Sequence record: OR352945.1
Direction: 5' to 3' (one strand)
Source: Escherichia phage AV115
DNA length: 64,000 nucleotides
Each line of letters starts with the position of its first letter. Within the stretch, counting starts at the first letter, position 1. Position numbers and translations under genes: made by a program. The notes under the pieces are model-generated. The model did not search any database. It worked only from the letters and a program-made list of their open reading frames with translations, and was not told the origin of the DNA. Of the stretch, positions 1,489 to 16,779 are shown piece by piece.

Positions 1489-1651
1489 TATAAATTCTCT
1501 TTAAATGAAAATGCAGGACTTATTGACATTGCCTGCTCAAGCCCTCAATGGGAACATAGGTTTTGGATATTTAACGACAGGATAACCATAAACCCGTCAT
1601 CATACCTACCATGACTTACACAGCTAACCTTTTGCTGACGCATGATAGCAA

Positions 1652-1900
1652 TTATTTCAAAGTAATAACAAAATGACGTACTGCTTTACGAGCTGCAGAA
1701 GCCAAAGGCTTAGCATATTTCAGTTCATCTTTTGCTTCCAGTTCAGAAGCCAAAGCTGCCTGGACCGGGTTCAGATGTTTGAAATAACGAAGGATTTCAA
1801 GAGCTTCGGCTTCAACATCAATAGATGCGCCATAGTTTTCATGACCATTATTCCATGCGTTTCGTTGCAGTTCAAGAGCGTGTTGTAATTGTTTAATCAT
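1652..1900 (-). CDS. rIII: lysis inhibition accessory protein rIII (82 aa)
   Basis: Length and sequence match recalled T4 rIII; sits next to gene 31. Confidence 0.75.
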   Translation of the reverse strand: MIKQLQHALELQRNAWNNGHENYGASIDVEAEALEILRYFKHLNPVQAALASELEAKDELKYAKPLASAARKAVRHFVITLK

Positions 1901-2024
1901 TTTAAATTCTCAATTCGAGATAATATTTAGTAGCCACGTTCGTCTGAATTTCACCTTCTTTCGACAAGTCTCTCAGTTGTAGGCTACCGCTTAGAAGAGT
2001 GTTCTCTTCATATAGTTATTTATA

Positions 2025-2357
2025 TCACTTATAAAGACACGGAATAGCTTTATAGTGGCATGTTACGAATTTCTGTTTAATTTCTTTAGGTTGTTTAAGT
2101 CCCAAAGCCACAAATGGATGTGGAACATTTCGAATTTGTCCAACTGGTAGTGGAGTCAAATCACCGACTTCAACAAAACCTTCAGGAACATCAGGACCTA
2201 CAGAATGAACTACACATAGTTCAGGAACTTCACCTTGAACACGTTTACCAATCACAAGTCCTGATTCGGTAACTTCTTCATCACCTGCTTGAGCGGGTTC
2301 AGAAACCAGAATGACATATTCACCAACAGCACGAATTGGGAGTTGTACTTCAGACAT
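2025..2357 (-). CDS. 31: co-chaperonin gp31 (GroES analogue for capsid folding)
   Basis: 110 aa, near-identical to recalled T4 gp31 (MSEVQ...[22 protein letters not shown]...). Confidence 0.9.
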
Positions 2358-2414
2358 CTTATTTCCTTGTTGTTTGACGATAGATTAATAATACCATACT
2401 ATTCGTAAAGCATA

Positions 2415-2723
2415 TTACATAAGAAGCAAACGTTCTACCGGAGTACCATCAACCGAAATTACTTTATCAAGGCGGAAAGAACGCCACTGACCTAACTCGG
2501 TATCGAATGCTCGAACTGATTCACGAGGTTCAGAACGAACTTCTGTTGATGGGTTACTATTTTCATATTTGACTTCAAGTTCGTCGCGGGAAGCAAACAT
2601 CGTACGAACATCACCGTTAGCCTTTTCAAATACAACACAATGAACGCCTACAGACAGAATAGTTTTAATACGTTCACGAAGAACCATAGTTTCTTGTTCA
2701 GTTAAAATCATATTATTCACCAC
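2415..2723 (-). CDS. hypothetical protein (102 aa)
   Basis: ORF between cd and gene 31. Confidence 0.45.
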   Translation of the reverse strand: MVNNMILTEQETMVLRERIKTILSVGVHCVVFEKANGDVRTMFASRDELEVKYENSNPSTEVRSEPRESVRAFDTELGQWRSFRLDKVISVDGTPVERLLLM

Positions 2724-3294
2724 AAAAGTTTCGAATTTGTTCCCAATTCAGAGAACGAAGATTATTACGAGAGTACTGAATTACTTCAATACCGGCTTTT
2801 TTTAGAATGTCTGCCCAATTTTCAGGAGATCGGTCATATAATTCTGCATATACAACCTTTTTAATACCTGACTGTGTAATAGCTTTAGTGCAATCAGGAC
2901 ATGGAGAAAGCGTCGTATACAACGTAGCACCTTCAATAGAATTACCTTTACGAGCTGCAAACAAAATTGCATTCAATTCCGCATGGATTTCGTTATTAGC
3001 AGACCATGCACTATGAGCGGCCCGATGTTCTTTAGCCAAAACAAAATTATCCACCCGTCCAAATGCTGTAGTGCCTTCTTTATGCCCAGCAACGATGACC
3101 GGGCTTGGTTTATTCTTCAACCAACCATTTTCGGATGCATGTTCGCAACAGTTTGTACCACCTGAAGGAGAGCCATTATAACCTGTAGAAATAATGCGTC
3201 CATCTTTTTCAATGACGGCGCCAACTTTCCATGAACAACATTTTGATTCTTGAGAAATCAGATAAGCAATCTGAAGATATGTGCTAGCTTTCAT
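2713..3294 (-). CDS. cd: dCMP deaminase
   Basis: 193 aa; cytidine/deoxycytidylate deaminase zinc motifs (CEHA...SPCPDC); T4 cd length. Confidence 0.9.
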   Translation of the reverse strand: MKASTYLQIAYLISQESKCCSWKVGAVIEKDGRIISTGYNGSPSGGTNCCEHASENGWLKNKPSPVIVAGHKEGTTAFGRVDNFVLAKEHRAAHSAWSANNEIHAELNAILFAARKGNSIEGATLYTTLSPCPDCTKAITQSGIKKVVYAELYDRSPENWADILKKAGIEVIQYSRNNLRSLNWEQIRNFCGE

Positions 3295-4286
3295 TATTGA
3301 ACCTTATTAATATAAGTTAACAGCTCTTTAGTTTGTTCCCAACTGATGCACGCATCGGTAATGGAAACGCCATAGGACATATTATCAGAAATTTTTTGAT
3401 TTCCTTCATGTAGGAATGATTCTATCATAATTCCTTTGACCAAATCATTAGCTGCTAAATTTTTACCAATACCAATTTGATTGCTATAATGCCCATCAGC
3501 GTTTGCATGGCTACAGTCAACCATTACATAATGATTCAGACCTACTGCCCTTGCTTTGTTAGAAGCTTCTTGAATATCAGAAGAATGATAGTTCGGGCCG
3601 TTGGTCCCGCCACGCAATACGATATGCGTATTCTGATTACCTTCAGCTTCAACAATGCCTACAGTACCATCGACGTCCATACCCATATACCGATGAGGCC
3701 AGGCGGCACTATACATCGCGTCTGTAGCTACTTTAATAGAACCATTGGTTGCGTTCTTGAAGCCTACGCACATCGGTAGACCTGAAGCAATTTCACGATG
3801 TGTCTGACTTTCAGTCGTACGGGCGCCAATAGCAACCCATGAGAAAATACCAGAAAGATACTTAATCGTGAATGGGTCTAATACTTCAGTTGCTAATGGA
3901 AGTCCCATACGTAGAAGTTTACGACACAATGTTCGTGCAACTATAAGACCGTGGTTCATATCAAAACTTCCGTCAAGATATGGATCATTTACAAGACCTT
4001 TCCAACCTACGGTAGTTCGAGGCTTTTCAAAATAAACGCGCATCACTAACAGAACATTAGGAAGACGAGTTTGAAGTTCAGCCAGACGTTTGCCGTATTC
4101 AACAGCAGCAATAGGGTCATGAATTGAACAAGGACCTACAACAATAAGTTTGCGTGGGTCTTCACCGTTCATAATCGAATTAACTTGTTCGCGATGAGAA
4201 GCCACTTGTGATGCGTAAGCTTCCGACAAAGGAATAATCTCAGCCAGTTCTTTTGGAGAAATAAGTTTTCCGACGACAGGTAACAT
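3294..4286 (-). CDS. 3-deoxy-7-phosphoheptulonate (DAHP) synthase, class I AroF/AroG/AroH-like
   Basis: 330 aa with blocks GPCSIHD, MRVYFEKPRTTVGWKGL, AIGARTTESQTHRE, VGFKN, DCSHAN, ITDACISWE that I recognise from E. coli DAHP synthases; ATG at 4284-4286 with TAAGGA RBS. Confidence 0.85.
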   Translation of the reverse strand: MLPVVGKLISPKELAEIIPLSEAYASQVASHREQVNSIMNGEDPRKLIVVGPCSIHDPIAAVEYGKRLAELQTRLPNVLLVMRVYFEKPRTTVGWKGLVNDPYLDGSFDMNHGLIVARTLCRKLLRMGLPLATEVLDPFTIKYLSGIFSWVAIGARTTESQTHREIASGLPMCVGFKNATNGSIKVATDAMYSAAWPHRYMGMDVDGTVGIVEAEGNQNTHIVLRGGTNGPNYHSSDIQEASNKARAVGLNHYVMVDCSHANADGHYSNQIGIGKNLAANDLVKGIMIESFLHEGNQKISDNMSYGVSITDACISWEQTKELLTYINKVQ

Positions 4287-4406
4287 AACAATCCTTAGGA
4301 GATATAAACAGATTCTGATTCAACAATACCTTTAACCGGATTAGACAGGCTAAGTTGGTAGTGCTCAGATTTATGACCATTCTCGATAGTAATGAGATAG
4401 CTCTCA

Positions 4407-4643
4407 TTATAGTGTTCCATATACTCGAGTTGCTTCAACAAGACCATCACTGCCTAATTTAAGATTAGTAATTTGGTCACCATCTTTAGGATTAACGATT
4501 ATGAGAAAAGAACGTGGAGATTCTTGAATAACTCGTAATGTTGCATCTTGGAAACGTTCAGACACTTTATTGATGAGTGCTTGAGCAAATTCTTTTACTT
4601 TAATCTGAAATTCGTGTACTGTAATTGGGTTTTCACTTAGCAT
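4407..4643 (-). CDS. hypothetical protein (78 aa)
   Basis: ORF only. Confidence 0.4.
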   Translation of the reverse strand: MLSENPITVHEFQIKVKEFAQALINKVSERFQDATLRVIQESPRSFLIIVNPKDGDQITNLKLGSDGLVEATRVYGTL

Positions 4644-4703
4644 TTCTATTTCCTCATTTGTTGGTAGAGTTATAGTATCACAACTCCACCATGTTGTAAA
4701 CCA

Positions 4704-4979
4704 TTAAATTGCTTTGCATTCAATTTTTTGTGTACCGAAATTGATATCACATTGGATAACTAAATCGCCGTCAAGATCAAATACCACTATGACGTGTGCA
4801 GACCCAGGGAGAAGAGTAATAGCAATAGAATCTACTTGGTCTGGGAGCAAAGCATTGAGTACATGAGTTAGTTGAGCATGAACTCTGAGTTCGGCTGCAA
4901 TATCAAGCACTTCAAACATATTATTAGCAATAATCTGACTGAAGACTACCTTTACAATTTCAGAATATTTAGGGAACAT
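4704..4979 (-). CDS. hypothetical protein (91 aa)
   Basis: ORF only. Confidence 0.4.
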   Translation of the reverse strand: MFPKYSEIVKVVFSQIIANNMFEVLDIAAELRVHAQLTHVLNALLPDQVDSIAITLLPGSAHVIVVFDLDGDLVIQCDINFGTQKIECKAI

Positions 4980-4986
4980 AATTACC

Positions 4987-5211
4987 TCAGTGCACAGTAT
5001 TTACTTTAACTCGAACAACAAATCGCTCGGTTGGTTCACCGACGGGAACAAACTCTACATGATATTCACCTTTGTAACGAGTATTCAGATCATTACGAAT
5101 TCCTGCGAGTTTGTTGATTAATGTAGGACTCATATTAAGTCCCACTAGTTTACGAAGCATTTTGTATGCTTCATCTTCGATTTCATGATGTTTATCGTAC
5201 ATAGTTTTCAT
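4987..5211 (-). CDS. hypothetical protein (74 aa)
   Basis: ORF only. Confidence 0.4.
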   Translation of the reverse strand: MKTMYDKHHEIEDEAYKMLRKLVGLNMSPTLINKLAGIRNDLNTRYKGEYHVEFVPVGEPTERFVVRVKVNTVH

Positions 5212-5382
5212 TTAACCATTCAATTGCCTGGTCGACGTTATCAAATATACCGCCGTCCAAACGTTCTTCACGCTCATAGTCCATCACATCAATACCGAAC
5301 TGTCCATTTACTAAAGGCCAGGCTACAAACAAATATTCTTTATGATGTTCGATGGCCTCAATCACTTCATATAATCGTTTCA

Positions 5383-5383
<1 letters not shown>
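5192..5383 (-). CDS. hypothetical protein (63 aa)
   Basis: ORF abutting pseT. Confidence 0.4.
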
Positions 5384-6469
<1,086 letters not shown>

Positions 6470-8235: not shown

Positions 8236-9369
<1,134 letters not shown>

Positions 9370-9384: not shown

Positions 9385-9417
9385 AAATTGTACCACAATC
9401 CTTGTGGTGTGTAAACT
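9385..9417 (-). promoter_or_regulatory. T4-type early promoter upstream of gene 63
   Basis: Minus strand GTTTAC, 18 nt, TACAAT. Confidence 0.5.
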
Positions 9418-9826
9418 ACTTTTTCTTATGTTGGATATTCCAAGGCGGGTTGAACTTTTTGATAAAAAGTGGTTCTTCAAGGTCCATTGTTGCGATGGTC
9501 ATTGAACCAAGTTCGTTGGTGACTGAAAGGTCAAAACATTGGCGGGCCCAGAATTCAACCTTTTTGCCTTGCATTAAGGCATCCAAAATCATAAGTGATT
9601 TTCTTGAATCTGAAGTCTGGTCTTTTCGATTTATGGCTGTTCGATAATAGTTAATGCGTTTCTTTAAATTCTTGGTTTTACCAATATACACAAGTTCGTC
9701 ATCTATAGCAATAGCATATATAACATTTTTCTTATTAGGGGCATCAATGGTTTTAATTGTTGCATCTTCTAATAGCTCCAATTCTATATATTTAATAAAG
9801 GAATATTCGGCGGCAATATCTTTCAT
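9416..9826 (-). CDS. denA: endonuclease II (GIY-YIG family)
   Basis: 136 aa with GIY-YIG-like VYIGKTKNLKKRINYY; position between gene 63 and nrdB. Confidence 0.85.
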   Translation of the reverse strand: MKDIAAEYSFIKYIELELLEDATIKTIDAPNKKNVIYAIAIDDELVYIGKTKNLKKRINYYRTAINRKDQTSDSRKSLMILDALMQGKKVEFWARQCFDLSVTNELGSMTIATMDLEEPLFIKKFNPPWNIQHKKK

Positions 9827-9834
9827 AATAAAGT

Positions 9835-9848
9835 GGGACCGAAGTCCC
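9835..9848 (-). terminator. intergenic UUCG hairpin between nrdB and denA
   Basis: GGGAC-UUCG-GUCCC on minus transcript; weak U-tract, may be stability element. Confidence 0.35.
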
Positions 9849-9852
9849 GTCC

Positions 9853-10355
9853 TTAGAAATATTTTTTGTATGAATTGATTACATTTTGGTCTACATCATT
9901 ATCAATTTGTGCGACAAGATAAGAACTGATTTCAACTTCCTGAGGAGCTGCTTGAACTAAATCAGAGTTCAGATATTCACGAATCCAAGGATAAGGATGT
10001 TTGGTCGGAGCATCAGTAATTGGACACGGCAAACCACACTGTTTCATACGAGACACAGTCAAGTAATCAACAAAAGCACACATACTCTGTGTATTGATAC
10101 CTGGACATGTACCGTCTTTAAAGAGGTGTGCAGCCCATTCCTTCTCTTGACTATTTACTTCCATAAAAATGTCAACTGCTTCTTGTTCACATTCTTTAGC
10201 AATTTGAACCCACTCATCACCATCAGTACCGGATTGAAGTTGACGGATAATGTACTGAGTACCCTTGAGATGGAGTTGTTCGTCACGAGCAATGAACTTC
10301 ATAATCTTTGCATTGCCTTCCATAATTTCCATATTCTTATGGAAATTAAATGTAC
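9853..10355 (-). CDS. nrdB: ribonucleotide reductase small subunit NrdB, exon 2
   Basis: C-terminal R2 sequence (FNFHKNMEIMEGNAK...); joins exon 1 to give conserved Cys codon TGT. Confidence 0.85.
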
Positions 10356-10947
10356 CGTTATGTTCGATTGAGCTCGCTAATTCTCAACCCGTTCTCTTAT
10401 GAACTGCTGCATATTACTATGCAGACCAGACTATATCACAATCCCGGAGGGATTCTCCCCATTTCGAGTCGCTTGACCCTACGTCCGAAGACTAGTCGTT
10501 GAACCTTGCTTTGCAATTGTCGCCGTGCCATCGTTTATATGTCGATGGTGATAAATCTTTCTTTTCACAATATGGACAATTCAATTGAATTCTATTTGGA
10601 TTTAATTTGCATCTGTCATTATGTTTTAGATAAAACCCAGGACCTTTACCAATGTGACCGCAGAAATCACATGTGATTTCTTTTTGTGCAGGATGGGTTC
10701 CGTTCTTAACCATTTCTAATGTTTTTGCTGATGTTCTTCCATCAGAATCTTTAGGTATAGGCCCGTTAGCATCCATCCAAATTTTTCTATAATTCAATTG
10801 TGCATCCTCTTAAAAGTATAATCATATTTATTTTATAATATACTAATTAAAGGTGCAAGCAAAACCTTGGCTGCTAGTTTTCCTATAAAGGACTTTCCAG
10901 CAATTAAAGGAGTTTTCGATAAACGTTACCGTTTAAAGGCGCATTTT
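10356..10947 (-). mobile_element. group I intron in nrdB (about 592 nt; boundaries approximate)
   Basis: Interrupts conserved R2 sequence; 3-prime end GAACATAACG and core blocks shared with td intron. Confidence 0.8.
10492..10797 (-). CDS. intron-encoded HNH/zinc-finger endonuclease remnant (I-TevIII-like, 101 aa)
   Basis: ORF inside nrdB intron with CxxC...H...C and CxxC...HGDNC motifs; short, so probably truncated. Confidence 0.6.
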   Translation of the reverse strand: MNYRKIWMDANGPIPKDSDGRTSAKTLEMVKNGTHPAQKEITCDFCGHIGKGPGFYLKHNDRCKLNPNRIQLNCPYCEKKDLSPSTYKRWHGDNCKARFND

Positions 10948-11623
10948 ACGCAAAAGATACATAAAAACGAATAGCTTCCAATGCATTGATGACATGCAAA
11001 CAAAGATAAAGAGATTTCATTAGGTCTCGTTTAGCTTCGGTCTCTTGTTTAATAGCTCGGTTTAAACGAAGGTCGGCATCAGGAGATTCTTTAGCTTGTT
11101 CTACAAATTCTTTAGCATTTTCCCAATTACGAGTCTTGACTAGAACATCATCATAATATTTACCTATTGATTCAGCTCGTTTCATGATTGCTTCGTCTAA
11201 TACAATCTCATCAAATACTTTGGATGGATCGGTATAAAGATTTCGCATAATATGAGTATACGAACGAGAGTGAATAGTTTCACTGAATGTCCATGTTGCA
11301 ACCCACGTATCTAATGAAGGGTCGGAAAGCAGTGCCATAAGTACCGCAGATGGGGCCCTGCCTTGGATAGAATCTAATAATGATTGATACTTAAGGTTGT
11401 TTGTAAAGATGTCCTGTTGGAACTGAGGAAGCTTATTGAACTGGGCCGAATCCAGCATCAGGTTTACTTCTTCTGGTCGCCAGAAAAACGACAATTGCTT
11501 TTCAATAAGTTCTTCAAAAACTTTATGTCGCTGAATATCATAACGTGCGAGGCCAAGACCAGAACCAAAGAACATTGGTTCATTCAAAACATCGACTTGT
11601 TGTGTGTTAAAAACTGTACTCAT
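10948..11623 (-). CDS. nrdB: ribonucleotide reductase small subunit NrdB, exon 1
   Basis: N-terminal R2 sequence ending ...RFYVSFA then in-frame stop at exon/intron junction. Confidence 0.85.
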
Positions 11624-11678
11624 TATATTTTCTCACTTAGTTATTAACTCATCCATGAGTAAATTATAATCAAAAGTC

Positions 11679-13943
11679 TTAAAGCTTACAAGCAGAACAA
11701 TCTTCAGCTTTAGGTGTTTCTAATTCATAGTCATCTGTACCTGACCCATCACGAGTGTTATGATAGTAGAGGTTTTTTCCGCCAAAGTACCAGAAGTAAA
11801 GCAGATCGTCAAGCATTACTGACATTGGCACTTTACCTTTCTCAAATACTGCAGGGTCATAGTAAGTATTAGCAGAAGCAGATTGGCACACCCATTTCAA
11901 CATGATAGCAACTTGGGTCAAATAAGGTTTATTACCTTTCTTAGCAAGTTTCCACGCGTAGTCGTAAAGACTCATGTTATGTTCTATATTAGGAACAACC
12001 TGTCGGAAGTTGCCTTCTTTAGATTCTTTAATACTTACAGGTCCACGAGGTGGTTCTATACCATTTGTGCTATTTGAGACTTGACTGCTTGACTCACAAG
12101 GCATGAGTGCAGACAACGTTGAGTTACGAATTCCATGTTCTTTGAGTTCAGCTCGAAGTTCTTCCCAGTCACAGACATAGTTCGGGGCTGCGATTTGGTC
12201 AATCTTTTTATTGTACCAGTCGATAGGTAATTCGCCTCTAGACCATTTAGTGTCTGAATAATACTCACAAGGTCCTTTTTCTTTGGCGAGTTTGATTGAT
12301 GCTTTGATAAGGCCATATTGCAATCTCTCGAACAATTCATGGGTCAAATCGTTAGCGTCTTCATATGAAGCAAAGTTAGAAGCTAACCATGCAGCATAGT
12401 TCGTCACACCAACACCGAGATTTCGACGCTTTTTAGCTTTTAAAGCTTCTGGAACCGGATAATCTTGATAGTCTAACAGGTTATCAAGTGCACGTACTTG
12501 TACTTCAGCAAGTTCATTAATTTTATCTTGGTCTTGCCAATCAAATTTATCTAATACAAAAGCAGATAATGTGCATAAACCAATTTCAGCATCAGGACCA
12601 TTCACATCATTAGTTGGAATAGCGATTTCACAACATAAGTTACTCTGACGAATTGGAGCTTTTTCACGAATAAACGGAGTGTAGTTATTCGTGTTATCAA
12701 CAAACTGTGGATAAATTCGAGCAGTGCCAGAACGTTCAGTCATGAACAATTCAAAGAGTTCTAGTGCTTTGATTCTTTTCTTTCTGATTGTTGGGTCTTT
12801 TTCAGCTTTCTCATAAAGCTCACGGAATTTATCTTGATCTTCAAAGAACGAGTAGTATAGTTCACCTGACATTTCGTGAGGGCTAAATAAAGTAATATAA
12901 TCATTTTTACCAAGGCGTTCCATCATAAGGTCATTAATCTGAATTCCGTAGTCCATATGTCGAATACGGTTTTCATCCACGCCTTTGTTATTTTTCAGAA
13001 CTAATAGGTTCTCTACTTCTAAGTGCCACATCGGATAATACGCTGTAGCAGCACCACCACGAATACCACCTTGAGAACAAGATTTTACTGCAGTTTGGAA
13101 ATGTTTCCAGAATGGAATAACACCTGTATGTCGAACTTCACCCGTACCGATCTTAGAACCTTCTGCACGAAGCATACCAACGTTGATACCGATACCAGCT
13201 CGTTTAGAAATATATTCAATAATTGATGCTGAAGTTTTGTTAATAGATTTTAACGAATCACCTGCTTCAATAACTACACAACTAGAGAACTGGCGAGTTG
13301 GAGTACGAGCACCTGCCATAATTGGGGTTGGCAATGAAACTTGATGAGTAGAAACGGCATCATAAAAACGAATAATATGTTTCAAACGGTCATGAGTTTC
13401 GTCTTGGTGTAAGGCCATGCCAATAGCCATGATAGCAAACTGGGGAGTTTCATAAATCTTCCCAGTTGTTTTATCTTTAACTAGATATTTTTCTTTAAGC
13501 TGCATAGCACCAGCATAAGTCAGGTCAAAGTCTCGTTCATGTTTAATCTGTGAATCGAGATAAATGATTTCTTCTGCTGAATATTGAGACAACAGCTCAG
13601 GGTCATATTTGCCTTCATTAACACAGTAAGAAATATGGTCTATAAAAGCAGGCGGTTCAAACTGCCCATATACATCTTTACGAAGTGCAAACATTAGCCC
13701 TTTGGCGGCGACATACTGATAATCAGGTTCTTCGACAGAAATCAAGTTAGCTGCAACTTTAATACAAATCTTCTGAATATCTTTGGTGCTCATCCCGTCG
13801 ACAAGATGGGTCTTAATTTCTTCATACAATTCGTATGGGTCGATTTGTGTTCCTTCACACTGCCAAGTTAATACTTGAATAATTTTCTGTGCATCAAAAT
13901 TTTGGGATACACCTGAATTTTTCACTACTTTAAAATTATACAT
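11679..13943 (-). CDS. nrdA: ribonucleotide reductase large subunit NrdA
   Basis: 754 aa; class Ia R1 features; T4 length and synteny. Confidence 0.95.
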   Translation of the reverse strand: MYNFKVVKNSGVSQNFDAQKIIQVLTWQCEGTQIDPYELYEEIKTHLVDGMSTKDIQKICIKVAANLISVEEPDYQYVAAKGLMFALRKDVYGQFEPPAFIDHISYCVNEGKYDPELLSQYSAEEIIYLDSQIKHERDFDLTYAGAMQLKEKYLVKDKTTGKIYETPQFAIMAIGMALHQDETHDRLKHIIRFYDAVSTHQVSLPTPIMAGARTPTRQFSSCVVIEAGDSLKSINKTSASIIEYISKRAGIGINVGMLRAEGSKIGTGEVRHTGVIPFWKHFQTAVKSCSQGGIRGGAATAYYPMWHLEVENLLVLKNNKGVDENRIRHMDYGIQINDLMMERLGKNDYITLFSPHEMSGELYYSFFEDQDKFRELYEKAEKDPTIRKKRIKALELFELFMTERSGTARIYPQFVDNTNNYTPFIREKAPIRQSNLCCEIAIPTNDVNGPDAEIGLCTLSAFVLDKFDWQDQDKINELAEVQVRALDNLLDYQDYPVPEALKAKKRRNLGVGVTNYAAWLASNFASYEDANDLTHELFERLQYGLIKASIKLAKEKGPCEYYSDTKWSRGELPIDWYNKKIDQIAAPNYVCDWEELRAELKEHGIRNSTLSALMPCESSSQVSNSTNGIEPPRGPVSIKESKEGNFRQVVPNIEHNMSLYDYAWKLAKKGNKPYLTQVAIMLKWVCQSASANTYYDPAVFEKGKVPMSVMLDDLLYFWYFGGKNLYYHNTRDGSGTDDYELETPKAEDCSACKL

Positions 13944-14583
13944 AATAATTCCATGTTGGATAATTTGATGATTTTAGACGGCGTCTAACCGTTTGGGTGC
14001 TCATAGATAAAATTATTGACGCTTCATTTAATGTATCATATATTACGTCGTTTATAATTACTTTCTTTGCAAATGGATTCTTAGCTCCTATCATAGCGTT
14101 AGAAATAGCTTGCTTAGTTGATTCTTTTAATGGGACTCCTTTAGAAATTTTTGTTTTAATTTTTATATTGTATTGTCCGCGTTTTTTACCTAATAAAGAA
14201 TTTCGTATCTTTTCTTTAGTCTCTTCAGATTTAACATGTCCTAGTTTGGAACGAGATATTTTATCTTTTGTTTTTTGGTCTAATTTTCGCCCTTTAAGCA
14301 AATCAACCATTTTTGCTCTAGCCCATCCAAATTCTTTATTATTTCTAGAACTCATTAAATTAACCGCGGTTGCTAAACCTAAATTGTTCGGATATATTTT
14401 TAATAAAAGAAGATGAGCCAAATAATGTTCTGAATATGTTAATTTAACTAGATTGTATGACTCATTGGTGCCACCTAAACATTTTGGGATTATATGATGC
14501 CATTCACCATCGATATCTTCAAAATTTCTTTCTTTATTTACTAAGTTTTTATATATTTTTAAATAATCCATAGTATAATCCAC
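13936..14583 (-). CDS. free-standing HNH homing endonuclease (215 aa)
   Basis: HHIIPKCLGGTNESYNLVKLTYSEHYLAH motif; 3-prime end overlaps nrdA start by 8 nt. Confidence 0.75.
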   Translation of the reverse strand: MDYTMDYLKIYKNLVNKERNFEDIDGEWHHIIPKCLGGTNESYNLVKLTYSEHYLAHLLLLKIYPNNLGLATAVNLMSSRNNKEFGWARAKMVDLLKGRKLDQKTKDKISRSKLGHVKSEETKEKIRNSLLGKKRGQYNIKIKTKISKGVPLKESTKQAISNAMIGAKNPFAKKVIINDVIYDTLNEASIILSMSTQTVRRRLKSSNYPTWNYYV

Positions 14584-14902: not shown

Positions 14903-15214
14903 TTATACCGCCATTTTAGCTTTGATAGCTGGATGTGATTCGTAATTTTTAAGAACGAAATCAGAATGTGTCATCGTTCCGGTAACCCAGTCCATTTGGA
15001 TTTTTGTAGGCCAATTCTCAAAATTACTAGGCCAATTAATTTCAAGAGAACATAACTCTTTAGGTTCATGACGAAGAACTTCTTTGCATTGTTCTACATG
15101 ATTGCTGTAGATATGCGTGTTGCCGCCTGAGAACACTAAATCACCTGGGATAAGGTTACACATCTTCGCTACAATATGTGTCAAGGCAGCGTACGAGGCG
15201 ATGTTGAACGGTAG
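14903..15214 (-). CDS. td: thymidylate synthase, exon 2
   Basis: Begins LPFNIASYA..., matching recalled T4 td after the intron. Confidence 0.9.
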   Translation of the reverse strand, partial: LPFNIASYAALTHIVAKMCNLIPGDLVFSGGNTHIYSNHVEQCKEVLRHEPKELCSLEINWPSNFENWPTKIQMDWVTGTMTHSDFVLKNYESHPAIKAKMAV

Positions 15215-16230
15215 CATTATGTTCAGATAAGGTCGTTAATCTTATCCCGGAATTATATCCAGCTGCATGTCACCATGCAGAGCAGACTATATCTCCAACT
15301 TGTTAAAGCAAGTTGTCTATCGTTTCGAGTCACTTGACCCTACTCCCTAAAGGGATAGTCGTTAGGCATTTATGTAGAACCAATTCCACTTATCAGATTT
15401 TACACGGTAAGTAACTAATCCTGATGAAATTTCAAAATGTCTAGCCGCATCGGCTGCACATTCAAAAATAATCCCATCGCATGAAATCTTTTTGATGTTA
15501 GCTGGCTTTTTGCCTTTCATCTTTTCAGATAGTTTAGTTTTAGTTTTTTCTGAATGTTTGTGATTAAAGAACGGGTTATTTTCACCTGAACGTTTTCGGC
15601 ACTTTCCACAAGTATCGGCCGAAGATGGTATGCGAACACCGCATTTACAAAACTTGTGGTTTTCTGGATTCCATCGGCCATTTTTACTTCCGTGTTTACC
15701 ATAAAGAGCTTTCCGACCATCAGGACCAAGCTTAAGCATCTTAGCTTTAACAGTTTCAGCTCGTTTCTTAGCAATTTCTTCTTTTAATGGATGATTTGAA
15801 AGCACATCGCCAAAAGACGCATCAGCAATATTATATCCATTAATTTTAGAATTTAGCTCTTTAATCCAAAAATTTTCTCGTTCAATAATCAAATCTTTCT
15901 CATATGGAATTTCTTCCAGTATAGAGCATTCAAAAACATTACCATGTTTATTAAAAGACCTTTGAAATTTTATAGAAGAGTGAACACCGTTTTCAAGGTC
16001 TTTAAAATGTCTCTTCCATCTTTTCTCAAAATCTTTAGCACTTCCAACATACACTTTACCGTTTAAAGTGTTTTTAATCTGATAAATTCCGCTTTTCATA
16101 AACACCTCTTTTTATATAGAAGTATTTATTAAAGGGTAGTCCTACAATTTAGCACGGGATTGTCTACTAGAGAGGTCCCCCGTTTAGATAGATTACAAGT
16201 ATAAGTCACCTTATACCTAGGCCTAAATTA
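15215..16230 (-). mobile_element. group I intron in td (1016 nt)
   Basis: 5-prime end TAATTTAGGCCTAGGTATAAGGTGACTTATAC and 3-prime end GAACATAATG on the minus strand; length equals recalled T4 td intron. Confidence 0.9.
15362..16099 (-). CDS. GIY-YIG homing endonuclease I-TevI
   Basis: 245 aa from ATG 16097-16099; MKSGIYQIKNTLNGKVYVGSAKDFEKRWKRH closely matches recalled I-TevI. Confidence 0.9.
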   Translation of the reverse strand: MKSGIYQIKNTLNGKVYVGSAKDFEKRWKRHFKDLENGVHSSIKFQRSFNKHGNVFECSILEEIPYEKDLIIERENFWIKELNSKINGYNIADASFGDVLSNHPLKEEIAKKRAETVKAKMLKLGPDGRKALYGKHGSKNGRWNPENHKFCKCGVRIPSSADTCGKCRKRSGENNPFFNHKHSEKTKTKLSEKMKGKKPANIKKISCDGIIFECAADAARHFEISSGLVTYRVKSDKWNWFYINA

Positions 16231-16779
16231 ACCTAAGAAAACATCTACACTGCGTTGATACCATTGTAAATCAAGATGACCATTACGCACATTGAACTGA
16301 TAGAACATATGGCAAGGAGGAAGAGCCATTTGATTTATTTCAGCCGGATTCCAGGCAGAAACAATTTGACGACGATCAGTTGGTAATTTTTTAATACGGT
16401 CGATTGTTTCAACTAATTGGTCTACACCACCAAAATCACGCCATTGCTTACCATAAATAGGACCAAGTTCGCCGCTATGATATCCAAGGTCTTTTGCCTG
16501 ATTTTCATAGTTGTCGTCCCAAATAGTTTTACCTTGAATAAGACTACCATGAGTACGAATACGCAAATCATTAACATTGGTAGAACCAGACATGAACCAC
16601 AGTAACTCGGCAATACAAGCTTTCCATGCTAATTTCTTAGTTGTTACTGCAGGAAATCCTTTAGTAAGGTCCCAACGTAATTTAGTTCCGAACAGGGCAA
16701 TAGTGCCGGTACCTGTACGGTCGTCTGTTTCGTAGCCATTTTCTAAGATATCTTTAATCAGGTATTGGTATTGTTTCAT
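16231..16779 (-). CDS. td: thymidylate synthase, exon 1
   Basis: Ends ...SVDVFLG; in-frame TAA is the first three intron nucleotides. Confidence 0.9.

What the first reader, a model, noticed from the sequence alone, without database searches (positions are those of the whole stretch)
10356..10947. nrdB group I intron carrying a short HNH/zinc-finger ORF
The NrdB reading frame breaks after ...RFYVSFA and resumes about 590 nt downstream; joining at a U-ending exon restores the conserved Cys codon (TGT). The intron holds a 101-aa ORF with CxxC and HGDNC motifs, probably a truncated I-TevIII-like endonuclease that has lost its DNA-binding domain. The intron ends GAACATAACG, almost the same as the td intron end GAACATAATG.
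Basis: partly seen in the sequence, partly recalled or inferred. Interest (0 to 1): 0.4.

Follow-up and report, generated by a model that had tools for sequence, protein, structure and literature searches.

The report
Phage nrdB self-splicing intron, dead endonuclease
This is the well-known self-splicing intron of the T4-family ribonucleotide reductase gene nrdB, here in a Mosigvirus phage, and its homing-endonuclease gene has lost the DNA-cutting domain through a deletion different from the classic one in T4; it is ordinary biology with a small evolutionary twist.

Summary
On the minus strand, nrdB is split by a 592-nt insert (10356-10947). Joining exon 1 (ends in U at 10948) to exon 2 (starts at 10355) restores TGT and gives a 392-aa NrdB colinear with E. 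coli R2.

The insert is the T-even nrdB group I (IA2-type) intron. It is 95-98% identical to the T4 and RB3 introns, at the same site, and covariation supports helices P7.1-P9.2.

The 101-aa ORF is I-TevIII with residues about 21-188 removed. That is a 504-nt in-frame deletion between 8-nt repeats (AAGAACAT). The H-N-H catalytic motif is gone. The two zinc fingers and the dimerisation region, which belong to the DNA-binding domain, remain.

The deletion is not T4's. Its right end lies 13 nt further on, and it is in frame rather than frameshifted. It occurs in only four deposited Danish Mosigvirus genomes (AV109/114/116/118), where the intron is not annotated.

The intron was acquired horizontally, because flanking genes are only 68-83% identical to RB3/T4. 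There is no mobE between nrdA and nrdB.

Verdict: a known element, with a second and undescribed degenerate allele. Low interest.

The parts
10948..11623 (-). nrdB exon 1 (676 nt; ends ...TTT GCG T)
   Evidence: ORF list and sequence. The spliced product is colinear with E. coli NrdB.
10356..10947 (-). Group I (IA2-type) nrdB intron, 592 nt
   Evidence: 95-98% identical to the T4 (598 nt) and RB3 (1091 nt) nrdB introns at the same insertion site. Rfam Intron_gpI gives 35.9 bits, E 2.4e-7, below the gathering score. Covariation supports the 3' helices.
9853..10355 (-). nrdB exon 2 (503 nt including the stop codon)
10938..10951 (-). P1: exon GCGU (10951-10948) pairs with the internal guide GCGC (intron nt 6-9), giving a U.G wobble at the 5' splice site
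   Evidence: The MFE fold of the ORF-less construct pairs G-C, C-G, G-C and U.G. Coordinates.
10859..10934 (-). 5' core: P2 (10921-10934), P3 5' strand (10907-10912), P4/P5/P4' (10872-10902), P6a 5' strand (10859-10865)
   Evidence: P2, P4, P5 and P6a are recovered by MFE folding. P3 (CUCCUU/GGGGAG) rests on inspection only. Intron nt 1-105 are 100% identical to RB3. Coordinates.
10798..10861 (-). Expression signals of the intron ORF, in the P6a loop: MotA-box-like TGCTTGCA (10854-10861), a hairpin that sequesters the Shine-Dalgarno AAGAGGA (10805-10811), and a 5-nt insertion that abolishes the TATAAATA late-promoter motif present in T4/RB3
   Evidence: Alignment and motif search and hairpin folds for the window and T4. 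The regulatory scheme is known from the review PMC2988022. The promoter assignments here are inferred.
10492..10797 (-). 101-aa remnant of I-TevIII (residues 1-20 fused in frame to 189-269). The H-N-H motif is absent. Zinc finger 1 is at 10609-10671 and zinc finger 2 at 10513-10578.
   Evidence: Domain map from PMC1865063.
10731..10738 (-). Deletion junction: the single retained copy of the 8-nt direct repeat AAGAACAT that flanks the 504 nt missing relative to the JM17-type full-length intron
   Evidence: Alignments and junction census.
10356..10514 (-). 3' catalytic core: P6a 3' strand, J6/7, P7, P7.1, P7.2, P3', P8, P7', P9, P9.1, P9.2 and the terminal G. The last ~23 nt of the ORF overlap P6a'/J6/7/P7.
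   Evidence: Rfam partial alignment. Alignment with 7 other phage group I introns (6 distant ones and the window's td intron) plus T4 nrdB gives 96.7% of cells paired and compensatory changes in 21 of 37 pairs. Coordinates.

Best explanation
The 592-nt insert is the T-even phage nrdB group I intron (IA2-type core with P7.1/P7.2), here in a Mosigvirus (AV109 lineage).

Splicing (inferred by homology). The nrdB pre-mRNA should self-splice by the guanosine-initiated two-step transesterification. The 5' splice site is defined by the U.G pair of P1, and the 3' splice site follows the terminal G. Splicing joins U to GU and yields a full-length 392-aa NrdB.

Homing module (sequence shown; inactivity inferred from published deletion constructs). 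The homing-endonuclease gene in the P6a loop is dead. A 504-nt in-frame deletion between two copies of AAGAACAT, most simply explained by replication slippage or microhomology recombination in a JM17-like full-length intron, removed I-TevIII residues about 21-188. The H-N-H active site and part of the minimal DNA-binding region are gone. Only the two-zinc-finger and dimerisation module remains, still behind its native Shine-Dalgarno sequence and TTG start.

History (inferred from identity patterns). The intron reached this lineage by homing from another T-even phage, with exon co-conversion. It then lost its own mobility. It now persists as a passenger, because precise loss is rare and imprecise loss would destroy nrdB.

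This deletion is a different allele from the classical T4 deletion.
For: 1. Identity and site. The intron is 95-98% identical to the T4 and RB3 nrdB introns and sits at the same codon. Intron nt 1-105 are identical to RB3. Outside the ORF-containing P6a loop, every ribozyme base state is found in T4 or in RB3.

2. Structure.
- MFE folding of the ORF-less construct recovers P1 (with the U.G), P2, P4, P5, P6a, P7.1, P7.2, P8, P9, P9.1 and P9.2.
- The 3' core aligns with T4 nrdB, the window's td intron and introns from Staphylococcus, Pseudomonas, Klebsiella, Clostridioides and Krischvirus phages. In that alignment 96.7% of cells are paired, against 31-43% when the partners are slid, and 21 of 37 pairs show compensatory changes (0 of 500 shuffles reach this).
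- Rfam Intron_gpI scores E 2.4e-7.

3. Spliced product. It is colinear with E. coli R2.

4. ORF.
- The alignment to the 269-aa I-TevIII shows residues about 21-188 missing.
- The HNH_3 Pfam match of RB3 I-TevIII (aa 4-48) has no counterpart in the window ORF.
- PHROG 'intron-like DNA endonuclease' matches only profile positions 189-269.
- In the literature, H26/H27/N39/H48 are catalytic. Fragment 194C binds zinc and dimerises but does not shift DNA, and the minimal binding fragment is 166C.

5. Distinct allele.
- The window junction GATGGAAGAACATCAGC occurs as one piece in only 4 records.
- The T4 junction GGAAGAACATAAGAAAAGAACATCAGC occurs in 15 records.
- 85 of 137 intron-bearing records keep the deleted segment.
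- The window shares the 5-nt insertion and other SNPs with the Mosigvirus full-length intron of JM17, and none of the T4-private variants.

6. Horizontal transfer.
- Against RB3/T4 the intron is 95-98% identical, while nrdA is 78-79%, denA 74-75% and rnlA 68%.
- Against the intronless Mosigvirus AV117, nrdA, exon 2 and denA are about 97% identical, but coding nt 501-700 around the insertion site fall to 66-88%.
Against: - No experimental splicing data exist for this phage.
- Rfam RF00028 does not reach its gathering score (35.9 against 50 bits; nothing is reported in the whole-window gathering search). The probable reason is that the ~340-nt P6a loop carrying the ORF breaks the 5' half of the model alignment.
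- P3 rests on inspection only.
- P7 is nearly invariant, so it is uninformative for covariation.
- The T4 junction itself contains AAGAACAT twice, 13 nt apart. The window junction could therefore formally be a secondary 13-nt slippage of a T4-type allele.
- The retained ORF codons show 4 synonymous and 2 non-synonymous differences from JM17 (pN/pS about 0.12, binomial P about 0.015). That is not what a long-dead gene would show. Either the deletion is recent or the remnant is not entirely neutral.
Confidence: 0.9

Rival explanations
1. The window allele is not an independent deletion. It derives from the T4-type deletion allele by a second, 13-nt slippage between the two AAGAACAT copies at the T4 junction, which happened to restore the reading frame. 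It then moved into Mosigvirus.
For: The T4 junction reads GG-AAGAACAT-AAGAA-AAGAACAT-CAGC. Deleting one repeat unit (13 nt) gives exactly the window junction. The window shares two bases with T4 against JM17/RB3: the P8 loop C and the P9 C.
Against: The window carries none of the T4-private variants: the L5 1-nt deletion, TGT at the first zinc finger, AAAAC in P6a', GGACTGC, the P9 G-C pair and the 3' ACATACG. It does share the 5-nt insertion, TTGAAT and GGA with the full-length Mosigvirus intron of JM17. A one-step 504-nt deletion between 8-nt repeats in a JM17-like parent needs fewer events.
Confidence: 0.08
2. The 101-aa zinc-finger/dimerisation remnant is not junk. It is an expressed protein kept by selection. 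It could act as a dominant-negative partner that poisons full-length I-TevIII dimers from co-infecting phages, or as a regulator.
For: - The deletion is in frame and keeps the native Shine-Dalgarno sequence, the TTG start and the regulatory hairpin.
- pN/pS is about 0.12 against JM17 over the retained codons.
- The retained part matches the protease-stable, zinc-binding, dimerising fragment 194C.
Against: - An in-frame outcome is expected by chance in one deletion out of three.
- Only 6 substitutions are available, and they may predate the deletion.
- 194C does not bind the homing site in gel shifts.
- An intron-bearing genome is already immune to I-TevIII, so a benefit is unclear.
- The T4-type alleles are frameshifted and persist equally well.
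- The perfect late-promoter motif is absent.
Confidence: 0.07
3. nrdB is truly split or pseudogenised, as the GenBank records that annotate two separate 'beta subunit' CDSs imply, and the intervening DNA is only an inserted endonuclease cassette that is not removed from the RNA.
For: The AV109 record annotates two separate nrdB CDSs and a 'homing endonuclease', with no intron feature. Rfam finds nothing at the gathering threshold.
Against: - A complete group I core is present, with covariation support.
- Exon 1 ends in a stop codon created by the insert.
- Exon 2 has no start codon or ribosome-binding site at its true beginning.
- The exact join restores a conserved Cys and full colinearity with E. 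coli R2.
- The insert is near-identical to the T4 intron, which self-splices in vitro and in vivo (established literature, cited in PMC1865063 and PMC2988022).
Confidence: 0.02

Closest known systems
Phage T4 nrdB group I intron with defective I-TevIII (598 nt; Eddy & Gold 1991, cited in PMC1865063)
   Same: - Same gene and same insertion site (after the U of the Cys codon in ...SFAC...).
- Same ribozyme: 95-97% identity.
- Same architecture, with the ORF in the P6a loop and its 3' end overlapping J6/7-P7.
- The endonuclease is also inactivated by a ~0.5-kb internal deletion that starts at the same GGAAGAAC microhomology.
   Different: - The right end of the deletion lies 13 nt further downstream. 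The deletion is 504 nt and in frame here, against 491 nt and frameshifting in T4.
- The host phage belongs to another genus (Mosigvirus rather than Tequatrovirus).
- There is no mobE next to nrdB, whereas T4 relies on MobE for trans-homing (PMC2790892).
- A 5-nt insertion removes the TATAAATA late promoter.
Phage RB3 nrdB intron encoding active I-TevIII (1091 nt, 269 aa; Robbins et al. 2007, PMC1865063)
   Same: The ribozyme core is essentially identical: intron nt 1-105 are 100% identical and the 3' part is 98.1% identical. The ORF start, Shine-Dalgarno sequence, hairpin and C-terminal 81 residues are the same.
   Different: RB3 encodes the full H-N-H catalytic domain and the full DNA-binding domain, and its intron homes. 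The window lacks residues about 21-188 and is predicted to be immobile by its own means.
Full-length nrdB intron of Mosigvirus phages JM17 / JM10 / PTE-Eco05 (1096 nt)
   Same: This is the closest relative and the likely parental type. It shares the 5-nt insertion, and identity is 98.4-99.0% outside the deletion. The nrdB exons are 97% identical.
   Different: It has an intact 269-aa I-TevIII. The window has 8 private substitutions in addition to the 504-nt deletion.
T-even td intron / I-TevI (also present in this window, ending at 15215)
   Same: Homologous IA2-type core with a near-identical 3' end, and an ORF in a peripheral loop.
   Different: It lies in a different gene. Its endonuclease belongs to a different family (GIY-YIG), and in this window it is intact (247 aa with GIY-YIG, zinc-finger and DNA-binding domains).

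Membership tests
Group I intron (IA2-type, T-even nrdB intron) | 5' splice site follows a U that forms a U.G wobble in P1 with the internal guide sequence | tested here: met
   Exon GCGU pairs with intron GCGC (nt 6-9) in the MFE fold, with U10948 opposite G.
Group I intron (IA2-type, T-even nrdB intron) | Intron ends in a guanosine (omega G) | tested here: met
   The intron ends ...ACATAACG at 10356, and the frame is restored only with this boundary.
Group I intron (IA2-type, T-even nrdB intron) | Conserved catalytic core helices P7, P8 and P9 plus the subgroup-specific P7.1/P7.2, supported by covariation | tested here: met
   The 9-sequence alignment with distant phage introns gives 96.7% paired cells and compensatory changes in 21 of 37 pairs, against 31-43% paired in the slid controls. 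P7 itself is nearly invariant and therefore uninformative.
Group I intron (IA2-type, T-even nrdB intron) | P3-P6 domain (P3, P4, P5, P6/P6a) | tested here: inconclusive
   P4, P5 and P6a are recovered by MFE folding. P3 (CUCCUU/GGGGAG, pseudoknotted with P7) was found by inspection only. No covariation test was done on the 5' half. The 5' 105 nt are, however, identical to the RB3 intron.
Group I intron (IA2-type, T-even nrdB intron) | Rfam RF00028 gathering score (50 bits) | tested here: not met
   The score is 35.9 bits (E 2.4e-7 locally, 1.7e-5 window-wide). The 5' half of the model is mis-aligned into the ORF, so only J6/7-P9 align with high posterior probability. The td intron in the same window behaves the same way (36.2 bits).
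Group I intron (IA2-type, T-even nrdB intron) | Self-splicing with guanosine cofactor | not testable with these tools
   Inferred from 95-98% identity to the T4/RB3 introns. T4 self-splicing is established in the literature (reviewed in PMC2988022).
I-TevIII (H-N-H homing endonuclease) | H-N-H catalytic motif (H26, H27, N39, H48) | tested here: not met
   All four residues lie in the deleted segment. Pfam HNH_3 matches RB3 I-TevIII aa 4-48 and nothing in the window ORF.
I-TevIII (H-N-H homing endonuclease) | Two CX2CX12-13HX3C zinc fingers | tested here: met
   CDFC-X12-HNDRC (aa 43-63) and CPYC-X13-HGDNC (aa 74-95), equivalent to C211/C214 and C242/C245.
I-TevIII (H-N-H homing endonuclease) | Minimal DNA-binding fragment (residues 166-269) | tested here: not met
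   The retained C-terminal part starts at residue about 189. The published 194C fragment gives no gel shift.
I-TevIII (H-N-H homing endonuclease) | Site-specific double-strand cleavage of intronless nrdB, and homing | not testable with these tools
   Predicted to be absent because the catalytic domain is missing.
T4-type defective I-TevIII allele | Deletion junction GGAAGAACATAAGAAAAGAACA, with a frameshift | tested here: not met
   The window junction is GGAAGAACATCAGC, 13 nt shorter and in frame. Only 4 records carry it, against 15 with the T4 junction.

The most novel reading that the evidence does not exclude
I-TevIII carries a built-in deletion hotspot: GAAGAAC-like microhomologies flank the catalytic-plus-linker region. 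This hotspot has disarmed the endonuclease independently in different T-even genera. In the AV109 lineage the in-frame product, a stand-alone two-zinc-finger dimerisation module behind intact translation signals with pN/pS of about 0.12, would be retained by selection. It could act as a dominant-negative inhibitor of incoming I-TevIII or as a regulator, rather than being a decaying pseudogene.
Probability: 0.07. Interest if true: 0.5.

Novelty: already known. Interest (0 to 1): 0.15.

Why it matters
For annotation: nrdB in these phages is one intact spliced gene, not the two fragments plus an active 'homing endonuclease' that the deposited AV109-type records show.

For biology: this is one more natural data point for the invasion, degeneration and loss cycle of homing endonuclease genes. 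The same intron has lost the same domain by at least two different deletions at the same microhomology-rich spot, in two phage genera. Here it has happened without the MobE helper that keeps the T4 copy mobile.

It opens no long-standing question.

Tried and rejected
- The Rfam search of the whole window at gathering threshold found nothing. Only the E-value mode showed the two sub-threshold Intron_gpI matches, nrdB and td. This was rejected as evidence against an intron, because the ORF in P6a disrupts the model alignment.
- Other low-scoring Rfam matches in the region (rseX, InvR, miRNA models, E 0.45-9.7) were dismissed as chance.
- Pfam on the 101-aa ORF gave only sub-threshold zinc-ribbon-like matches.
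- I considered that the shortness of the ORF reflected the classical T4 deletion. This was rejected by the three-way alignment and the junction census.
- I considered an assembly artefact. This was rejected because four separately deposited genomes, one with diverged flanks (AV118, 98.6%), carry the identical junction.
- I considered MobE-mediated trans-homing as in T4. There is no room for mobE in the 55-nt nrdA-nrdB spacer. A different MobE-like HNH gene lies upstream of nrdA, but its target is unknown.
- No large protein-database, structure-prediction or metagenome scans were run, because they would not change the verdict.

Full report
**Origin of the window.** The region 9800-11700 is 100% identical to Escherichia phages AV109, AV114 and AV116 and 98.6% identical to AV118. 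These are Mosigvirus phages (Straboviridae) from Danish pig waste and wastewater. The gene order on the minus strand is nrdA (13943..11679), nrdB, denA (9826..9416), rnlA (9360..8236). The paper describing these phages (PMC10844046) does not mention introns.

- On the minus strand, nrdB exon 1 runs 11623..10948 and ends ...RFYVSFA plus a T.
- The next two bases (AA) belong to the insert and create a TAA stop.
- Exon 2 starts at 10355 (GT ACA TTT AAT...).
- Removing 10356-10947 (592 nt) gives an 1179-nt ORF. Its 392-aa product aligns over its whole length with E. coli NrdB (E 8e-127) and reads ...AIRFYVSFACTFNF... against ...AIRFYVSFACSFAF....
- The 101-aa ORF (10797..10492, TTG start) and the CxxC and H-X3-C motifs are present.
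- The intron's 3' end GAACATAACG has one near-twin in the window, GAACATAATG at 15215-15224(-), which is the td intron end.

**It is the T-even nrdB group I intron.**
- A three-way alignment with T4 (598 nt) and RB3 (1091 nt) shows the same insertion site. Sequence is near-identical everywhere except for one large gap.
- Rfam's Intron_gpI model matches 10407-10644(-) at 35.9 bits (E 2.4e-7), below the 50-bit gathering score. Only J6/7 through P9 align with confidence, because the ORF sits in the P6a loop and derails the 5' half of the model. The td intron in the same window behaves identically at 36.2 bits.
- An ORF-less construct folds by MFE into P1 (with the U.G wobble at the splice site), P2, P4, P5, P6a, P7.1, P7.2, P8, P9, P9.1 and P9.2. 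P3 (CUCCUU/GGGGAG) and P7 (GACUA/UAGUC) are pseudoknotted. P7 is included in the covariation test below, and P3 was read off by inspection.
- The 157-nt 3' core finds 791 phage records in a sensitive search, including Twort-like Staphylococcus phage introns.
- I aligned the core with T4 nrdB, the window's td intron and six distant introns. The helices P7-P9.2 that I specified are paired in 96.7% of cells, against 31-43% when partners are slid. Compensatory changes occur in 21 of 37 pairs, and 0 of 500 shuffles reach that.
- Outside the ORF-containing P6a loop, every ribozyme base in the window is found in either T4 or RB3. One difference from T4 in P9 is a compensatory G-C to A-U change.
- Splicing competence is therefore a strong inference, but it has not been tested.

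**The ORF is I-TevIII with its nuclease removed.**
- Against the 269-aa RB3 enzyme, the window ORF keeps residues 1-20 (or 1-22, since the repeat encodes RT) and 189/191-269.
- Pfam HNH_3 matches residues 4-48 of the RB3 protein and nothing in the window ORF. The PHROG profile for the family is matched only at positions 189-269.
- Robbins et al. 2007 (PMC1865063) showed that H26, H27, N39 and H48 are catalytic. They showed that C211/C214 and C242/C245 form two CX2CX12-13HX3C zinc fingers needed for DNA binding, and that dimerisation maps to residues 194-241.
- In the same study, fragment 194C is protease-stable, binds two zinc ions and dimerises, but gives no gel shift. The smallest binding fragment was 166C.
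- The window ORF therefore has no active site and an incomplete DNA-binding domain.

**The deletion is not T4's.**
- The closest full-length intron is that of Mosigvirus JM17 (also JM10 and PTE-Eco05), at 1096 nt. It is 98.4-99.0% identical outside the gap and shares a 5-nt insertion upstream of the ORF.
- In JM17 the 504 nt missing from the window are bracketed by AAGAACAT...AAGAACAT, and the window keeps one copy (10731-10738).
- 504 is divisible by three, so the N-terminal 20 codons run in frame into the zinc-finger part.
- T4's deletion starts at the same GGAAGAAC, but its right end lies 13 nt upstream. It removes 491 nt relative to RB3 and shifts the frame, so the native start runs into a stop (...DSDGRT*). 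The annotated 97-aa T4 ORF uses an out-of-frame internal ATG.
- Tequatrovirus G8 has a T4-like junction that differs by one base at the crossover. The protein cluster also holds annotated 73-, 87- and 105-aa C-terminal pieces.
- In the phage collection, 137 records carry the intron and 85 of them keep the deleted segment. Fifteen have the T4 junction (T4 stocks, T4T, RB55, RB59, Salmonella phage Manna). Four have the window junction (AV109/114/116/118).
- The T4 junction itself contains AAGAACAT twice, so a secondary 13-nt slippage could formally convert it into the window junction. The flanking polymorphisms argue against this: the window has none of the T4-private variants and has the JM17-type ones. 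I give this rival about 8%.

**History of the element.**
- Against RB3 and T4 the intron is 95-98% identical, while nrdA is 78-79%, the nrdB exons 78-83%, denA 74-75% and rnlA 68%. This is the known pattern of recent intron transfer among T-even phages.
- Against the intronless Mosigvirus AV117, nrdA, exon 2 and denA are about 97% identical. Coding nt 501-700, from about 175 nt upstream to 25 nt downstream of the insertion site, drop to 66-88%. RB3 reaches 98% in nt 501-550. This looks like an exon co-conversion tract left by homing. That is an inference.
- In T4 the dead intron is mobilised in trans by MobE, encoded between nrdA and nrdB (PMC2790892). In the window that spacer is only 55 nt, so there is no mobE.
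- A different free-standing HNH gene lies immediately upstream of nrdA and overlaps its start (13936-14583). It has a MobE-like N-terminal domain (47% identity over 77 aa, E 4e-22), a NUMOD3 motif and an I-TevI-type DNA-binding tail. It occurs in only 11 phage records. Whether it mobilises anything is unknown.

**Expression signals.**
- The Shine-Dalgarno AAGAGGA, the TTG start and the hairpin that sequesters the Shine-Dalgarno sequence in long transcripts are kept (scheme reviewed in PMC2988022).
- The 5-nt insertion, shared with full-length JM17, removes the perfect TATAAATA late-promoter motif present in T4, RB3 and JK45.
- Over the retained codons, the window differs from JM17 by 4 synonymous and 2 conservative non-synonymous changes (pN/pS about 0.12; binomial P about 0.015 under neutrality, ignoring transition bias).
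- The simplest reading is that the deletion is recent and these changes predate it, in an unsampled full-length parent. A retained function for the zinc-finger module cannot be excluded, but I rate it at about 7%.

**Verdict.** The finding is real. The group I intron reading is right and the domain assignment is wrong. The element is the long-known T-even nrdB intron. The only new detail is a second, in-frame natural deletion allele of I-TevIII in a Mosigvirus lineage, which is present in GenBank but not annotated as an intron. Interest is low.

Noticed in passing
window 15215-~16230 (-); ORF 15362-16105 (-): A second group I intron, the td intron (Rfam Intron_gpI 36.2 bits at 15263-15493, 3' end GAACATAATG). 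It carries an apparently intact 247-aa I-TevI-like ORF with GIY-YIG, I-TevI zinc-finger, NUMOD3 and I-TevI DNA-binding domains. It splits td between ORFs 16228-16779 and 14903-15217.
   Followed up: partly
window 13936-14583 (-): A free-standing HNH homing-endonuclease gene (215 aa) overlaps the nrdA start by 8 nt. Its N-terminal domain is MobE-like (47% identity to RB3 MobE over 77 aa), and it also has a NUMOD3 motif and an I-TevI-type DNA-binding tail. It is found in only 11 phage records, including all four AV109-type phages. It could in principle act as a trans-mobiliser of the nrdA-nrdB region. Its target is unknown.
   Followed up: partly
window 11624-11678: The nrdA-nrdB spacer is only 55 nt, so there is no mobE or hef-type gene here, unlike T4 and RB3. 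The defunct intron therefore lacks the helper described for T4.
   Followed up: yes
L001 (AV109, OR352939.1) 1578-3348: The deposited AV109-type records annotate nrdB as two separate CDSs and call the 101-aa remnant a 'homing endonuclease'. No intron feature is present. This is likely mis-annotation.
   Followed up: yes
L014 (phage vB_EcoM_G8) intron; T4 L003: The Tequatrovirus G8 intron is also 592 nt, but by a T4-like deletion whose junction differs by one base (GGAAGACCAT against GGAAGAACAT), plus a separate 2-nt deletion. Together with the window allele this suggests a microhomology deletion hotspot in I-TevIII (GAAGAAC / GAAGACC / AAGAACAT).
   Followed up: partly
window 10830-10850 (-), intron nt ~98-118: A 5-nt insertion in the P6a loop removes the perfect T4 late-promoter motif TATAAATA. 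It is shared with the full-length, presumably mobile, JM17 intron, so it is a Mosigvirus-lineage trait and not part of the decay.
   Followed up: partly
window ~10925-11123 (-) (nrdB coding nt 501-700): This stretch of exon 1, plus the first ~25 nt of exon 2, is much more diverged from the intronless Mosigvirus AV117 (66-88%) than the rest of the gene (94-100%), and is partly closer to RB3. It is probably a co-conversion tract from intron homing.
   Followed up: partly
L005 (JM17) 2863-6022: In the related Mosigvirus JM17, nrdA is split by an inserted homing-endonuclease gene (4333-5043) that is absent from the window, where nrdA is an intact 754-aa ORF. This shows how variable the mobile-element load is in this gene cluster.
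   Followed up: no
protein cluster (P0007, P0013): Salmonella phage S16 is listed with both a 269-aa I-TevIII homologue and a separate 105-aa C-terminal piece. This could be a duplication or overlapping gene calls.
   Followed up: no
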